Of a DNA stretch of 43,495 bases, positions 36,257-38,972 are shown in pieces (position 1 is the stretch's first letter; each line of letters begins with the position of its first letter). The notes beneath the pieces were generated by a model, which saw only the letters and a list, made by a program, of their open reading frames with translations, did no database searches and was not told the origin of the DNA. The stretch lies in the UHGV virus genome UHGV-0404561. One strand, written 5' to 3'. The stretch comes from a virus. The position numbers and the translations under genes were made by a program.

Positions 36257-36550
36257 TTAAATCTTAACTTTCAGTTCTTCTATGGCTTTTTTATATTTCT
36301 GTACCATTTTATCGAAAAACTCAGCCATTTCTACAAGAGCTTTCTCCTTTGCTTCATTCATATCTTCCGTTTCCAAAGGTACCTTGTTAATATTCAATTC
36401 ATAGCATGATAACAACCATTCATTGCCATAATCTATATGTTTATAAACCCTAAACCTAATTCCATTAGCCTCATTTTCTAATACACGTATTTCGCTTTTT
36501 ATGTCATTTCGACTATACACAGTGATATCTTTATACATCTTTCCCTCCAC
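36257..36550 (-). CDS. Hypothetical early protein (97 aa)
   Basis: ORF preceded by the conserved upstream motif + RBS. Confidence 0.5.
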   Translation of the reverse strand: MEGKMYKDITVYSRNDIKSEIRVLENEANGIRFRVYKHIDYGNEWLLSCYELNINKVPLETEDMNEAKEKALVEMAEFFDKMVQKYKKAIEELKVKI

Positions 36551-36556
36551 AAAATC

Positions 36557-36775
36557 TTAATTCACTCGCATTTCTTTCGCAGCCCGCATTAACGGGCATC
36601 TATTGCATTTATTATTATCGATTGCGGATGCATAAGCATCAGCTAGTACGCTGTGGTTATGCTCCGCAATATGCAGCAGCTCAATTAACTGCTGCTTTTT
36701 CATGTTGTTCAGCGTGGAATCTGCTGGAAGTGGTTTCCCGATCACGCCCTTGTCAAATCCATTAAAATTAACCAT
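36557..36775 (-). CDS. Hypothetical early protein (72 aa)
   Basis: ORF preceded by the conserved upstream motif + GGAGG. Confidence 0.45.
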   Translation of the reverse strand: MVNFNGFDKGVIGKPLPADSTLNNMKKQQLIELLHIAEHNHSVLADAYASAIDNNKCNRCPLMRAAKEMRVN

Positions 36776-36803
36776 CTAGCACCTCCAAATCTTAACTTTC
36801 AGT

Positions 36804-37031
36804 TTATCTGCGATAATCAAACCAGTTATCACTGCCAGGAAATTTAACTCTAATCTTTTTGGGAGCACCAGACCGGTCTACTCCAATAGGATTGTATTCC
36901 CCGATAATTGTTGCCTTTTCTAACAACTTATGGTTCTCTTCGCATTCCATTGCCTTTTCTCTGTCGGCATAATCCGTACGACAAACGTCACAGGTATATA
37001 ATACTTTCTGTTTCATACGCACCTCCATCAA
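36804..37031 (-). CDS. Hypothetical early protein with CxxC...C-x-E-x-H (75 aa)
   Basis: ORF preceded by the conserved upstream motif + GGAGG. Confidence 0.45.
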   Translation of the reverse strand: MMEVRMKQKVLYTCDVCRTDYADREKAMECEENHKLLEKATIIGEYNPIGVDRSGAPKKIRVKFPGSDNWFDYRR

Positions 37032-37237
37032 ATCTTAATTTTGCTTATCTCGTGATTTTCTTCTGGATTTCAAAAGATAGTCACGAGATAAAACGCTTGC
37101 AAGTCCGCTATCAGTCAGCCCCTCGCCTCTGTAAATCCGACTTTCACGGTTGGCAGCACCGGCTCTATAGACTAATTTCATCCGGCTTCCAGTTCCATCA
37201 TTTTAGGGTATCTTAACTTTCAGTTGTCCATTCATAG

Positions 37238-37993
37238 TTACTCATATGTTGGCTCCGGCTTTGTGTCCGAATAGACATCATCTTCATCGCTCAACTCGTC
37301 AGCAATAATTCTGACATCTGCTCTCTGCAGCTTTAAAAGTAATAAGTCAAACGCATCCAGATTTCTAAGGGAATTCAGATTCGGGTTTGTATCTACTCTT
37401 ATTTCCCATCCATCCTTTCTATCTCCATCCCACTTAGAGAGACGTATTGTTCTGTTAAGTTCCTCCTGCTGTTCCTCTTCATCCACTGTAAAATCAATAG
37501 TGGCATATTTGAATGAACTCCAGCTTCTCTCACGATCCTCCTCAAATTCAAAGAAAACAGTCATTGCCTCATACTCTGGTGACTCATCCCATTCAACTTT
37601 TCTGTCATAGGTATCCATATTTCTTGCGACAAACTTTTTGTATTCCTTAAACAAATCCGTTAATTTCATTTCTGTTATCTGAGGTTCTTTCATCAAATAC
37701 TGGAAATTTTCCAACATTTGCTTATTATCCATAAGAACAGATTTATTAACTATTTCCGTAAGAACTGTATCTAATTTTACTATATAGGCAGACATATCAT
37801 AGTTTTCAATAAACGGAACTAAAACCTGCTCAACTCTTTCTTTGACCGCCTTTTCAAGCTTTCCATAATTAAATGAACTAGCTATTGCTTTTTCTATTCC
37901 ATCCGTCACCTTTTCTCTAATAATCTGATCAACAGTTCCATCAGATAGGATTTCATCTGTGATTCTCTTAATATCTTCATCAAAATTTGCCAT
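37238..37993 (-). CDS. Acidic hypothetical early protein (251 aa)
   Basis: ORF preceded by motif + AGGAGG. Confidence 0.5.
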   Translation of the reverse strand: MANFDEDIKRITDEILSDGTVDQIIREKVTDGIEKAIASSFNYGKLEKAVKERVEQVLVPFIENYDMSAYIVKLDTVLTEIVNKSVLMDNKQMLENFQYLMKEPQITEMKLTDLFKEYKKFVARNMDTYDRKVEWDESPEYEAMTVFFEFEEDRERSWSSFKYATIDFTVDEEEQQEELNRTIRLSKWDGDRKDGWEIRVDTNPNLNSLRNLDAFDLLLLKLQRADVRIIADELSDEDDVYSDTKPEPTYE

Positions 37994-38020
37994 ACTATTT
38001 TCCTCCTAAATATCTTAATT

Positions 38021-38509
38021 TCAGTTTAGTTTTTTACTCCATCGTTGTTTTTTCTTGTTCACTGGATATTTTTCACGCTCTGGAAACAGCGAAAGTTGTG
38101 ATGCAATAACCTCCCTTGGCCTACTTGGCGTATTCCAATCGGCACCACCCACTCCATCAGCTTCTAGCGTCCATCCTGCCGCCTTCAAGCTTGTTCCCGG
38201 TTCTGATTCCAGAATATACGTTACAATCTTTGCATATCCCATTTCTTTTGCCACCCGCGCCGCTCGACTGTAAAGAAAGCTGCATACATCCTTTTCCCCA
38301 TTGGTGCATAATCTCAGCACCTCTAATGTTTTTCCATCATCCAGCACCCTGGAAACCGGTCTTCCGACCTGCACAACACCGACAATTTCCCCATTCTGCA
38401 TAGCAGCAATACGGTACTTGTCTCGGTGCGCCGCTTGATGATGTCTATGGTAAGTGTTTATGTATTTCTGCGCATCTTTCAACTCCATCGGTACCGCAAT
38501 CATTGTCAT
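38021..38509 (-). CDS. Conserved hypothetical phage protein (162 aa), possibly GNAT-like fold
   Basis: ORF with motif + RBS upstream. Assignment tentative. Confidence 0.45.
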   Translation of the reverse strand: MTMIAVPMELKDAQKYINTYHRHHQAAHRDKYRIAAMQNGEIVGVVQVGRPVSRVLDDGKTLEVLRLCTNGEKDVCSFLYSRAARVAKEMGYAKIVTYILESEPGTSLKAAGWTLEADGVGGADWNTPSRPREVIASQLSLFPEREKYPVNKKKQRWSKKLN

Positions 38510-38519
38510 GATTCATCTC

Positions 38520-38972
38520 CTAAATCTTAATTTCGCATAACTGTTTTTTATGGTTCTGATTAAGACCGATTACTTCATCTATGCTGTCCCAATCAAACTC
38601 AATATTGTATTTTCGCTGTAATTCTTCCGCATAATCCTTTACGGTTTCATACTGGCACCCAAACGGGTCCACGGCGTCCATCATATCGCAAAGGTTGATA
38701 AACGCATCCTTCCATCTTAACAACCGATCACGACCAAATCCAAACGCCTGATTAAGTGAAAACATCACTGTAGGCACGAATGTGGCCAGGATTCTGTGCG
38801 CCAACATTTCACTAAGCTCTTCAGCTTTTTTGCTGGATATCTCCATAGGGATAAAGTAAGCATTTCTGACTTTCAGCTCTTTTTTCAATGCCTCTACCAC
38901 GCCTTTTTCTACGATCTCCAGGGCGTATGCTAAACCATCCATCCTGGCTTTGTAAAATTTGTCCGTTTTCAT
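38520..38972 (-). CDS. Hypothetical early protein (150 aa)
   Basis: ORF. Confidence 0.45.
   Translation of the reverse strand: MKTDKFYKARMDGLAYALEIVEKGVVEALKKELKVRNAYFIPMEISSKKAEELSEMLAHRILATFVPTVMFSLNQAFGFGRDRLLRWKDAFINLCDMMDAVDPFGCQYETVKDYAEELQRKYNIEFDWDSIDEVIGLNQNHKKQLCEIKI

What the first reader, a model, noticed from the sequence alone, without database searches (positions are those of the whole stretch)
36259..38536. Seven-fold repeated 17-nt motif ACTGAAAGTTAAGATTT immediately upstream of the SD of consecutive early genes
Each of seven successive genes (35540-38509) is preceded by the same element at the same distance from GGAGG/ATG. In two cases it overlaps the previous gene's last codons (...KVKI*). 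Too close to the start codon for a conventional -35/-10 pair, it could be a phage-specific promoter with very short leaders, an RNA processing or translational operator site, or a target of a phage-encoded regulator.
Basis: seen in the sequence. Interest (0 to 1): 0.65.

Follow-up and report, generated by a model that had tools for sequence, protein, structure and literature searches.

The report
Shared linker bounding shuffled phage cassettes
A short conserved DNA "linker" (aaaTTAAGATTt, just before the ribosome-binding site) marks the boundary of every small gene in a hypervariable block of this gut temperate phage. Related phages swap, gain and lose whole genes exactly at this linker, which makes it a natural plug-and-play junction for accessory genes.

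Summary
The repeat is real, but it is not a seven-fold 17-mer. The exact 17-mer occurs twice, with a third copy at 2 mismatches. What recurs seven times on the minus strand (36.2-38.6 kb) is the core TTAAGAT(T), 2-8 nt upstream of GGAGG. Two decayed half-sites (AACTGAAA at 35536 and 35290) extend the series.

The nine sites delimit eight cassettes. These lie between the recombination module (Gam, Erf, NinB/Orf, RusA) and a Xer-like recombinase plus the terminase.

The same linker occurs in at least 99 viral and at least 120 metagenome contigs, mostly as same-strand arrays. It precedes more than 100 unrelated small gene families.

Similarity between phages breaks exactly at the linker. 93% of homology blocks that reach a linker junction end there, against 36-43% at other gene junctions. 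Close relatives with 96-98% identical flanks carry entirely different cassette sets.

Upstream genes terminate inside the linker in all three reading frames.

No sigma-70-like promoter, terminator, RNA structure, Rfam family or attC-like hairpin is associated with the sites. Arrays often lack the recombinase.

Best reading: a standard stop/ribosome-binding junction that also acts as a micro-homology crossover point for modular shuffling. It works like T4 PeSLs and resembles mycobacteriophage Start-Associated Sequences, but it is a member of neither. A sequence-specific trans-acting factor is not excluded.

The parts
38517..38534 (-). Linker site 1: GAAA-TTAAGAT-TT-AGGAG (core 38530..38524). 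It is the left boundary of the variable array. The stop TAG of the upstream 150-aa gene lies at 38522..38520.
   Evidence: The 98%-identical left flank shared with L077 stops at 38529.
38002..38026 (-). Linker site 2: AACTGAAA-TTAAGAT-ATTTA-GGAGG (core 38018..38012). The upstream gene stops at the TGA within acTGAaa.
37208..37225 (-). Linker site 3: AACTGAAAG-TTAAGAT-AC (core 37216..37210). No SD follows, so this is a degenerate junction.
37022..37042 (-). Linker site 4: AAAA-TTAAGAT-TTGAT-GGAGG (core 37038..37032).
   Evidence: The cassette shared with L020 at 98.8% runs 37039->36794.
36782..36804 (-). Linker site 5: AACTGAAAG-TTAAGAT-TT-GGAGG (core 36795..36789). This is an exact copy of the 17-mer.
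36543..36563 (-). Linker site 6: GAA-TTAAGAT-TTTGT-GGAGGG (core 36560..36554). The upstream gene's stop is the TAA inside the core.
   Evidence: The cassette shared with L008, L013, L074 and L077 starts at 36560-36565.
36249..36276 (-). Linker site 7: AACTGAAAG-TTAAGAT-TTAATGT-AGGAG (core 36267..36261). This is an exact copy of the 17-mer. The upstream gene ends LKVKI* across it.
35523..35536 (-). Half-site 8: AACTGAAA-TAACCC, with the right half lost. It is the left boundary of the 57-aa cassette.
   Evidence: The cassette shared with L013 (99.6%) and L011 starts at 35538/35537.
35273..35290 (-). Half-site 9: AACTGAAA-TTTAGCGGAG. It is the right boundary of the variable array.
   Evidence: The conserved right flank in L074, L075, L077 and L078 begins at 35291-35292.
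38021..38509 (-). Cassette 1 gene, 162 aa, Mom-like DNA-modification protein.
   Evidence: PHROG 1384, E 2e-34; gene call
37238..37993 (-). Cassette 2 gene, 251 aa, unknown function (phrog_2600).
37035..37181 (-). Cassette 3: a 48-aa ORF without an SD, probably a non-coding remnant.
   Evidence: not called independently
36804..37016 (-). Cassette 4 gene, 70 aa, unknown function.
36557..36775 (-). Cassette 5 gene, 72 aa, unknown function.
36257..36538 (-). Cassette 6 gene, 93 aa, unknown function. It is the most widely shared cassette (family F77).
35540..36241 (-). Cassette 7 gene, 233 aa, unknown function.
35313..35486 (-). Cassette 8 gene, 57 aa, with a weak RHH-like hit. It is bounded by the two half-sites.
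38520..38972 (-). Last gene of the conserved left flank (150 aa, phrog_17690). Its stop lies in linker site 1.
33473..35262 (-). Conserved right flank: two small unknown genes (34942-35262 and 34627-34941) and a Xer-like tyrosine recombinase (33473-34606).
39893..42659 (-). Phage recombination module upstream of the array: Gam-like (42168-42659), Erf-type SSAP (41520-42149), NinB/Orf (40921-41511) and RusA (39893-40261). These are the candidate enzymes for linker-mediated exchange (inference).

Best explanation
The element is a standardized intercistronic linker. It marks the cassette boundaries of a hypervariable accessory-gene array in a group of temperate gut phages, probably of Lachnospiraceae.

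Anatomy in the mRNA sense: [3' tail of the upstream cassette, often (T)AACTGAAAG] - TTAAGATT(T) - 0-5 nt - GGAGG - 5-9 nt - ATG.

Two jobs are proposed.

(1) Expression (inferred). The linker carries stop codons in all three frames: TGA in acTGAaa, TAA in tTAAgat, and often TAG/TAA in gatTTAGg. These are followed by an unstructured A/U-rich stretch and a strong SD. Whatever ORF is placed upstream is therefore terminated. The promoterless ORF downstream is then translated from a read-through polycistronic transcript.

(2) Exchange. The pattern is shown; the enzymology is inferred. The linker is the only sequence shared by otherwise unrelated cassettes. Crossovers between co-infecting phages or prophages therefore fall in it, and they insert, delete or replace whole genes without damaging either neighbour. 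The likely catalysts are the phage's own Gam / Erf-type annealing protein / NinB-Orf / RusA module, or host RecA, acting on 8-22 nt of identity.

Repeated exchange and gene conversion would keep the linker uniform within a lineage.
For: The repeat is real.
- Seven same-strand cores lie in 2.3 kb of the window (P of about 5e-9).
- Strand bias in relatives is 232:46 and 188:34.

It is widespread.
- AAATTAAGATTTGGAGG occurs in 99 viral contigs, and 45 of the 73 new loci carry at least 3 same-strand cores.
- It occurs in at least 120 metagenome contigs. Of 78 loci examined, 54 carry at least 2 cores within 3 kb either side.

Boundaries are precise in the window.
- The flanks shared with L077, L074 and L078 stop at 38529 and resume at 35291.
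- Single cassettes are shared from motif to motif: 37039->36794, 36560->36259, 35538->35279.

Arrays turn over quickly. WIN, L074, L077 and L078 have 87-98% identical flanks (96-98% for L074 and L077, 87-89% for L078) but about 7, 14, 14 and 1 different cassettes.

Reassortment occurs on both sides of the linker.
- 35 junction pairs share the downstream cassette with different upstream genes, and 17 pairs show the reverse.
- ACTGAAAG travels with the upstream gene, and the core plus SD travel with the downstream gene.

Control against ordinary gene boundaries.
- 93% of homology blocks that reach a motif junction end there (433 end, 33 span).
- The figure is 36-43% at other gene junctions, including small genes and gaps of similar size.
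- The odds ratio is about 24, and the per-junction Mann-Whitney P is about 1e-41.

The downstream genes are extremely diverse.
- 189 motif-preceded genes fall in at least 38 families, plus 97 in singleton or doubleton families.
- Each PHROG is hit by only one of 96 family representatives.

Termination and initiation fit the junction model.
- 68 of 184 upstream genes use the TAA inside the core, and about 80% stop between -12 and +9 of it.
- 95% of motif genes start with ATG, and 98% have an SD of at least 4 nt.

The motif is not needed for expression as such. Distant homologues of cassette genes outside arrays lack it.

The linker evolves in concert. L091 uses TTAAGGT at 5 of 7 junctions, for gene families that carry TTAAGAT elsewhere.

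The phage encodes Gam, Erf, Orf and RusA next to the array. Rad52-like recombinases, including Erf, together with Orf and Rap, drive mosaic formation on short or diverged homology (PMC3945230).

There is precedent for regulatory repeats mediating modular shuffling in T4-type phages (PMC2839356, PMC4122927).
Against: - The exact identity shared by unrelated junctions is short: median 9 nt, 90th percentile 14, maximum 30. That is below the length at which homologous recombination is known to be efficient.
- A purely recombinational role does not by itself explain why this particular 8-mer is kept across phage backbones that share none of the window's marker genes tested.
- The tolerated variants (TAGGAT, TAAGGT, TAAAAT, TAATAT) keep a TAnnnT pattern. 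That could reflect recognition by a protein or by RNA polymerase.
- Coincidence of breakpoints with the motif does not prove that the motif causes the recombination.
- There are no expression or recombination experiments.
- The HSP counts are not independent events.
Confidence: 0.6

Rival explanations
1. Sequence-specific RNA-level site. The single-stranded UUAAGAUU just 5' of the SD would be bound or cut by a phage or host factor (a translational repressor or activator, or an endoribonuclease). This would co-regulate all cassettes or create SD-proximal 5' ends. Cassette shuffling would then be a by-product of a functionally conserved sequence.
For: - The core is tightly coupled to the SD, ending 0-8 nt before GGAGG, with the core 18-26 nt from the start codon.
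- The orientation is strictly that of the mRNA sense.
- The region is unstructured and therefore accessible.
- Eight positions are conserved across different phage backbones.
- The commonest variants are A-to-G transitions.
- The lineage-wide switch to TTAAGGT in L091 would fit co-evolution with a phage factor.
- The analogous Start-Associated Sequences were also proposed to act in translation (PMC3203893).
Against: - No complementary RNA is present in the window.
- I found no convincing complementarity to the 3' end of Firmicutes 16S rRNA. This was checked by eye against a sequence recalled from general knowledge, not by a tool.
- No protein family is shared by all array-bearing loci in the flanks available.
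- Homologous genes outside arrays, and the array-flanking genes, do without the motif.
- This model does not predict the nucleotide-precise reassortment.
Confidence: 0.17
2. Site-specific cassette exchange. The core would be the crossover site of a dedicated recombinase, for example the Xer-like tyrosine recombinase encoded next to the array, or of a nuclease. The array would then be an integron-like system.
For: - The cassettes are promoterless, all in one orientation, and bounded by a 7-9 bp conserved core.
- The junction G|TTAAGAT matches 6 of 7 positions of the integron core site G|TTRRRY, and the variants keep purines.
- A bona fide tyrosine recombinase lies beside, or within, many arrays.
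- The shared identity is very short for homologous recombination.
Against: - Many arrays with more than 4 kb of downstream sequence have no homologue of the recombinase: L013, L019, L173, L177, L190, L214, L222 and L224.
- The recombinase is frequent in phages without arrays, in 11 of 19 such loci.
- It scores far below the integron-integrase models, 55 against a cutoff of 265.
- There is no attC-like element. The inverse core occurs 0 times in 105 junctions within 125 nt upstream, the mean folding z is -0.47, and the core is mostly unpaired.
- The site has no dyad symmetry.
- The crossover point is not fixed. TTCAGATT travels with the downstream gene F78, whereas F44 is seen with three different core variants.
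Confidence: 0.08
3. Phage-specific promoter. TAAGAT would act as a -10-only element read by host RNA polymerase with a phage factor, giving each cassette its own very short-leader transcript.
For: - The conservation pattern is T-A-n-n-n-T, with the variation in the middle three positions.
- In the long form of the linker a G lies two nt upstream of the hexamer.
- Single-box promoters are known. This refers to T4 late promoters (TATAAATA) and rests on general knowledge.
- PeSLs show that a promoter in front of each small accessory gene does exist in phages.
Against: - No copy meets even a relaxed sigma-70 scan, and promoter-like hits in the region do not exceed those in shuffled sequence.
- Nothing is conserved at -35 or -30, where the sequence is the variable 3' end of the upstream gene.
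- With the modal spacing TTAAGAT-T(T)-GGAGG, a start about 7 nt after the hexamer would remove the SD, which is nonetheless kept by 98% of these genes.
- There are no terminators between cassettes.
- No RNA polymerase or sigma gene was detected in the window ORFs scanned.
Confidence: 0.04
4. Stoperator-like DNA roadblock. An asymmetric binding site for the prophage repressor would be repeated between genes to silence the block in lysogens.
For: - The site is short, asymmetric and intergenic.
- It has one orientation relative to transcription.
- It overlaps stop codons.
- These properties match stoperators as they are contrasted with SAS in PMC3203893.
Against: - There is no copy in the lysogeny-switch intergenic regions. 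Every core outside the array lies inside a gene and has no SD.
- The sites are confined to one 3.3-kb block rather than spread across the operons.
- The tight spacing to the SD is not needed for a roadblock.
- This model does not explain the cassette-precise reassortment.
Confidence: 0.04

Closest known systems
PeSLs (promoter-early stem-loops) of T4-type phages (Arbiol et al. 2010, PMC2839356; Comeau et al. 2014, PMC4122927)
   Same: - Both are repeated intergenic cassettes lying between the stop codon of one small accessory gene and the SD and start of the next.
- Both are concentrated in hyperplastic regions rich in ORFans.
- In both, insertions, deletions and replacements between related phages have their end points in the repeats.
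- Both are read as expression signals that double as recombination sites.
   Different: - PeSLs are about 50 bp long and consist of a demonstrated sigma-70 promoter plus a terminator stem-loop.
- Here the conserved part is 8-22 nt, with no promoter, no stem-loop and no terminator.
- The hosts here are temperate phages of Firmicutes type, not virulent T4-like myoviruses.
- The sequences are unrelated.
Start-Associated Sequences (SAS) of Cluster K mycobacteriophages (Pope et al. 2011, PMC3203893)
   Same: - Both are short asymmetric repeats present in many copies per genome and in one orientation.
- Both are restricted to the non-structural half of the genome.
- Both lie a few nt from start codons of genes of many different families.
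- Both are enriched for ATG starts.
- In both, the upstream stop codon is sometimes inside the repeat.
- The function of both is unknown, and both are suspected to act in translation.
   Different: - The SAS (GGGATAGGAGCCC) contains the SD itself. Here the conserved core sits 5' of a separate canonical GGAGG.
- The sequence and the host phylum are different.
- SAS were not shown to be cassette-exchange junctions. Here that is the main evidence.
- There is no counterpart of the ESAS inverted repeats.
Linker or boundary sequences of the modular theory of phage evolution (Botstein 1980; lambdoid 'boundary sequences', Clark et al. 2001; both cited from general knowledge)
   Same: Both are short conserved sequences at gene or module boundaries, proposed to direct homologous recombination so that modules are exchanged intact. 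Both sit in a nin-like region next to orf/ninB and rusA/rap-type genes.
   Different: In lambdoid phages such sequences are few, weakly conserved and debated. Here a single 8-22 nt linker is reused at well over a hundred junctions with nucleotide-precise reassortment.
Integron cassette arrays (attC sites, core site GTTRRRY, IntI)
   Same: Both are arrays of promoterless, co-oriented, highly diverse small cassettes, each bounded by a 7-bp conserved core. A tyrosine recombinase is often nearby.
   Different: There is no attC hairpin or inverse core. The recombinase is Xer-like, is not IntI, and is not consistently linked to the arrays. The element is carried by a phage and lies inside an operon.
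Stoperators of Cluster A mycobacteriophages (L5 gp71 sites)
   Same: Both are asymmetric, intergenic, orientation-specific repeats of 8-14 bp that overlap stop codons.
   Different: Stoperators are spread genome-wide and share their sequence with the operator at the lytic promoter. Here the sites are confined to one array, coupled to the SD, and absent from the switch region.

Membership tests
PeSL (T4-type promoter-early stem-loop cassettes) | Contains a sigma-70-type early promoter (-35 and -10 boxes) | tested here: not met
   No promoter-like site coincides with any of the 9 sites, and hits in the region do not exceed those in shuffles. Nothing is conserved upstream of the core apart from an A-rich or ACTGAAAG tail.
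PeSL (T4-type promoter-early stem-loop cassettes) | Contains a stable stem-loop acting as terminator or attenuator | tested here: not met
   There are no minus-strand terminator-like sites in 35.2-38.6 kb. Folding z-scores are -0.18 to +1.6. The mean z over 105 junctions is -0.47.
PeSL (T4-type promoter-early stem-loop cassettes) | Lies in hyperplastic regions upstream of ORFans, and indel or replacement end points fall in the repeat | tested here: met
   (93% of homology blocks end at motif junctions, against 36-43% at other junctions)
Start-Associated Sequences (Cluster K mycobacteriophages) | 13-bp consensus GGGATAGGAGCCC occupying the RBS position and including the SD | tested here: not met
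   The consensus here is aaaTTAAGATT(T). It lies 5' of a separate GGAGG.
Start-Associated Sequences (Cluster K mycobacteriophages) | Many copies, one orientation, non-structural half only, immediately upstream of starts of unrelated gene families, ATG-enriched | tested here: met
Integron | attC site: imperfect inverted repeat with an inverse core (RYYYAAC) and a core (GTTRRRY) able to fold as a hairpin at the 3' end of each cassette | tested here: not met
   The inverse core ATCTTAA is found 0 times in 105 junctions within 125 nt upstream. There is no excess folding, and the core is unpaired in most minimum-free-energy structures.
Integron | IntI-type integrase adjacent to the array | tested here: not met
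   The adjacent recombinase is Xer-like. It scores 55.3 bits on TIGR02249 (cutoff 265) and 23.4 on NF011946 (cutoff 435). Many arrays lack it.
Integron | Promoterless, co-oriented cassettes of diverse content bounded by a short conserved core | tested here: met
Stoperator (Cluster A mycobacteriophage repressor sites) | The same site also forms the operator at the early lytic promoter, and copies are dispersed through both arms of the genome | tested here: not met
   All cores outside 36.2-38.6 kb lie inside genes at 4530, 9771, 38720 and 42280 (minus strand) and at 15531, 19166, 21861 and 42529 (plus strand). None lies in the intergenic regions of the lysogeny module.
Stoperator (Cluster A mycobacteriophage repressor sites) | Bound by the prophage immunity repressor | not testable with these tools
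   This needs EMSA or ChIP with the repressor candidates (2132-2518 on the plus strand; 5648-7279 on the minus strand).
Homology-directed module linker (Botstein-type) | The sequence shared by otherwise unrelated neighbours is confined to the boundary, and both sides reassort independently | tested here: met
   (35 plus 17 reassorted junction pairs; identity ends at the edges of the core)
Homology-directed module linker (Botstein-type) | Crossovers are actually catalysed at the linker by homologous recombination or annealing | not testable with these tools
   Only the enzymes are present: Gam, Erf, Orf and RusA. Genetic crosses are needed.

The most novel reading that the evidence does not exclude
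The 8-bp core would not be a passive patch of homology. It would be the recognition and crossover site of a dedicated, sequence-specific machinery: a recombinase or a nicking or cutting enzyme, encoded by the phage or by the cassettes. These arrays would then be a hairpin-less phage counterpart of integrons that actively captures and reshuffles accessory and anti-defence genes across unrelated phage backbones.
Probability: 0.08. Interest if true: 0.85.

Novelty: new variant of a known kind. Interest (0 to 1): 0.6.

Why it matters
- The idea that short linkers at gene borders steer modular exchange in phages dates from Botstein's modular theory. It has few clean examples beyond T4 PeSLs. Here one 8-22 nt linker is reused at well over a hundred junctions, and the reassortment is precise to the nucleotide. 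The hypothesis therefore becomes directly testable in temperate gut phages.
- The linker is a searchable handle, much as attC sites are for integrons. It can be used to harvest a large and very diverse pool of small phage accessory genes from gut metagenomes. The annotated ones include DNA methyltransferases, Mom-like and PAPS-reductase-type DNA-modification genes and radical-SAM enzymes, which suggests many act against host defences.
- If the junction also works as a portable stop plus ribosome-binding module, it is a natural landing pad for engineering such phages.

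Tried and rejected
- **17-mer as probe.** The exact 17-mer in the species-representative genomes gave 52 hits, all single and consistent with chance. No prophage array and no host came out of it.
- **Cultured relatives.** Blautia phage Montmirail (closest TerL, 62%), Enterocloster phages Saumur and Villandry, and Dulem virus 35 have at most 1-3 isolated cores and no array.
- **Alternative linker in Montmirail.** An apparent second motif, AGCTTAA, was a counting artefact.
- **Other linkers in array-less relatives.** The per-locus 9-mer search found none, apart from the TTAAGGT variant in L091.
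- **Conventional promoter or terminator.** Not found at the sites.
- **RNA structure or known RNA family.** None.
- **Antisense partner RNA in the window.** No AAATCTTAA-type complement.
- **Extended pairing with the 3' end of 16S rRNA.** Checked by eye against the generic Firmicutes tail and not convincing. It was not tested with a tool because the host is unknown.
- **Integron-like model.** The recombinase is not linked to the arrays, is not IntI, and there is no attC.
- **Trans-acting factor by co-occurrence.** No family is universal in 54 array loci. The flanks held are only about 7-10 kb, so the test is weak.
- **Homology actually used in past crossovers.** The attempt to measure it from reassorted pairs is uninformative, because the true parents are unknown.
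- **Function of the window cassettes.** Pfam, PHROG and NCBIfam named only the Mom-like protein.
- **Host.** The look-up of encoding contigs found the same phage in another sample but gave no host context.

Full report
**1. The observation**

All genes in 33-43 kb are on the minus strand.

- The reported 17-mer ACTGAAAGTTAAGATTT is exact only at 36275..36259 and 36803..36787. A third copy at 37224..37208 has two mismatches.
- What recurs seven times is the core TTAAGAT. Its first bases are at 38530, 38018, 37216, 37038, 36795, 36560 and 36267. Each copy is followed after 2-8 nt by GGAG(G) and then a start codon. The copy at 37216 is the exception.
- Seven same-strand cores in 2.3 kb against the rate elsewhere in the window give P of about 5e-9. 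The whole-window count alone is unremarkable, 15 against 8.8 expected.
- The left half AACTGAAA also occurs at two further intergenic places, 35536 and 35290, where the right half has decayed.
- Independent gene calls on the same phage from another sample give products of 150, 162, 251, 70, 72, 93, 233, 57, 106, 104 and 345 aa. They confirm starts at 38509, 37993, 37016, 36775, 36538 and 36241. They skip the 48-aa ORF after the 37216 copy.

**2. Genomic setting**

The window is a temperate phage.

- Repressor, metalloprotease and integrase lie on the plus strand at 2-5 kb.
- On the minus strand the order is: Gam-like, Erf-type annealing protein, NinB/Orf, RusA, unknown genes, the motif block (38.5 to 35.3 kb, including a Mom-like protein), two small unknown genes, a Xer-like tyrosine recombinase, a TerS-TerL fusion, portal, and so on.
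- The block therefore sits in the nin-like position between the recombination/replication genes and the packaging genes. Calling these genes 'early' is unverified.
- The closest cultured relative by terminase is Blautia phage Montmirail at 62%. The host is therefore probably a Lachnospiraceae.

**3. Distribution**

- The exact 17-mer occurs in 21 viral contigs, several with 2-3 copies.
- The more general AAATTAAGATTTGGAGG occurs in 99 viral contigs. Of the 73 new loci, 45 hold at least 3 same-strand cores, and the strand bias is 232:46.
Of 78 loci with at least 3 kb examined, 54 have at least 2 cores within 3 kb either side, with a bias of 188:34.
- Species-representative bacterial genomes gave only chance single hits.
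- Cultured Lachnospiraceae phages lack arrays.
- An unbiased set of 80 relatives was fetched through the flanking recombinase. The array is present in some (up to 14 copies in L077, 10 in L092, 9 in L074) and absent in others.

**4. Anatomy across instances**

- The consensus is a-a-a-TTAAGAT-T-(T), then 0-5 nt, GGAGG, 5-9 nt and ATG.
- Among 2,611 called genes in these loci, 127 have an exact TTAAGATT upstream. The distance from the core to the start codon peaks at 19-26 nt. One-mismatch variants peak at the same distance. The variants are mainly TTAGGATT (17) and TTAAGGTT (12).
- ACTGAAAG is present at only a subset of sites and travels with the upstream gene.
- Upstream genes end in or at the linker. 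Of 184, 68 use the TAA inside tTAAgat, and about 80% stop between -12 and +9 of the core. The median gap from stop to next start is 22 nt.
- In the window all three frames are used: TGA in acTGAaa, TAA in the core, and TAG/TAA just after it. The linker is therefore a DNA- or RNA-level element that overrides the C-terminal coding sequence.
- Motif genes are small, with a median of 82 aa. They start with ATG in 95% of cases and have an SD of at least 4 nt in 98%.

**5. The decisive comparative result**

- Gene order in relatives shows conserved flanks bracketing a hypervariable array whose genes each begin with the motif. WIN, L074, L077 and L078 share the flanks but carry about 7, 14, 14 and 1 different cassettes.
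- The window was compared with its relatives by blastn.
  - The 98%-identical left flank with L077 stops at 38529, one base into the first core.
  - The 97% right flank resumes at 35291, which is half-site 9.
  - Single cassettes are shared from motif to motif: 37039->36794 (L020, 98.8%), 36560/5->36243-36260 (L008, L013, L074, L077; 93-96%) and 35538->35279 (L013, 99.6%).
- In all-against-all comparisons of array segments, 39% of left ends and 33-38% of right ends of homology blocks fall within a few nt of a core. The figure for random points is 5-9%.
- The control against ordinary gene boundaries is strong. At motif junctions 433 blocks end and 33 run through (93%). At other junctions 36% end, or 40-43% for small genes or similar gaps. 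The odds ratio is about 24, and the per-junction Mann-Whitney P is about 1e-41.
- Both sides reassort. 35 junction pairs share the downstream cassette but not the upstream gene, and 17 pairs show the reverse. Identity on the non-shared side stops at the edge of the core.
- The downstream genes are extremely diverse. There are 189 motif-preceded genes in at least 38 families, plus 97 in singleton or doubleton families. Among 96 representatives no PHROG is hit twice. The annotated ones include three DNA methyltransferases, Mom-like, PAPS reductase, radical SAM, RecT, YopX, LemA and ASCH proteins.
- Distant homologues of cassette genes outside arrays have an ordinary SD without the motif.
- L091 carries TTAAGGT at 5 of 7 junctions, in front of families that carry TTAAGAT elsewhere. 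The linker therefore evolves in concert within a lineage.

**6. What it is not**

- Promoter or terminator: no sigma-70-like promoter or terminator lies at the sites. With the modal spacing, a start about 7 nt after TAAGAT would delete the conserved SD.
- RNA element: there is no RNA structure and no Rfam family.
- Integron:
  - No inverse core or attC-like hairpin was found.
  - The neighbouring recombinase is Xer-like and far below the integron-integrase cutoffs.
  - Many arrays lack that recombinase.
  - It is common in phages without arrays.
- Stoperator-like site: there is no copy in the switch region, and the sites are confined to one block.

**7. Mechanism**

Shown:
- The linker is a conserved, oriented, SD-coupled junction.
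- Cassettes reassort at it.

Inferred:
- (a) The linker gives every cassette a ready-made termination and re-initiation context. It carries three-frame stops, an unstructured A/U stretch and a strong SD. Promoterless genes are therefore expressed from read-through transcription.
- (b) Crossovers occur in the 8-22 nt of identity that unrelated junctions share. The median is 9 nt, the 90th percentile 14 and the maximum 30.
- (c) The phage's Gam/Erf/Orf/RusA set or host RecA would catalyse them. Rad52-like recombinases, including Erf, with Orf and Rap, are known to drive mosaic formation on short or diverged homology (PMC3945230).

Weak points:
- The homology is short.
- Conservation of this particular 8-mer across different backbones is unexplained.

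These leave room for a sequence-specific factor. I put the RNA-level operator or processing site at about 0.17 and a dedicated recombinase or nuclease at about 0.08.

**8. Comparison with known systems**

- It works like T4-type PeSLs, which are regulatory repeats that mediate modular shuffling in hyperplastic regions (PMC2839356, PMC4122927). It fails both defining PeSL features, the promoter and the stem-loop.
- It looks like the Start-Associated Sequences of Cluster K mycobacteriophages (PMC3203893). The sequence is different, it lies outside the SD, and it has a recombination role that was not described for SAS.
- It may be one of the cleaner natural examples of the 'linker' postulated by the modular theory of phage evolution (general knowledge).
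- No prior description of this linker turned up in the literature searches.

**9. Verdict**

This is a real feature, misdescribed in its details. It is a new variant of a known kind, namely linker-mediated cassette shuffling with a start-associated sequence. It is of moderate to high interest because it is widespread in gut phages, easy to search for, and directly testable.

Noticed in passing
window 3-120: A 27-bp tandem repeat, 4.4 copies (unit CACATCTCGCCGACCTGTGAGCTGCCA), at the very end of the window. The same unit occurs 5-8 times in relatives L078, L082, L084 and L085. Its function is unknown. The period is in frame (9 codons), or it may be a terminal or iteron-like repeat.
   Followed up: partly
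window 902-997: ATTTAC hexamer / 18-mer repeats (902-947), followed by a 23-bp repeat (948-997), in a non-coding stretch beside the lysogeny module. They may be operator or origin-like repeats.
   Followed up: no
window 30665-32290 (-): The terminase large subunit carries an N-terminal small-subunit domain (Terminase_2, residues 3-128) fused to Terminase_3. Blautia phage Montmirail matches over the full length.
   Followed up: partly
window 33473-34606 (-): A second, Xer-like tyrosine recombinase lies between the cassette array and the packaging genes, in addition to the integrase at 3536-4816 (+). It is conserved in more than 100 related contigs with or without arrays, and in some phages arrays lie on both sides of it. 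Its role is unknown.
   Followed up: partly
window 5648-7279 (-): A 543-aa protein combines two repressor-like HTH regions with a C-terminal HNH endonuclease domain.
   Followed up: no
window 23028-23250 (-): Three adjacent tRNA genes (Gln-TTG, Thr-TGT, Met-CAT) lie inside the structural region.
   Followed up: no
window 37035-37216 (-): The 'cassette' between cores 37216 and 37038 has no SD, and only a 48-aa ORF that independent gene calls skip. It is probably the remnant of a lost or truncated cassette that kept both linkers.
   Followed up: partly
L091 5651-8810: This relative uses the variant core TTAAGGT at 5 of 7 junctions, although the same gene families carry TTAAGAT in other phages. 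This indicates concerted evolution of the linker within a lineage, or co-variation with an unknown factor.
   Followed up: partly
L020 2820-2860, compared with window 36810-36780: In L020 the shared cassette ends ...AACTGAAA and continues with a degenerate copy of another cassette's leader (TTTGATGGATGCG) that has no core. It is an example of a junction formed at, or decayed to, the left half-site only, like window sites 35536 and 35290.
   Followed up: partly
18 array-bearing loci, for example L011 and L144 (family 1): A DUF551-like protein family of about 154 aa (motif ...WIPVEERLPEE...) sits a median of about 400 nt upstream of arrays in 18 loci. It is absent from the window.
   Followed up: no
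L151 (IMGVR_UViG_2886817950_000004): A short repeat family (ACCTGAGCG, TGCTAACCTGA and similar) occurs 13-22 times in this locus. It is unrelated to the linker.
   Followed up: no
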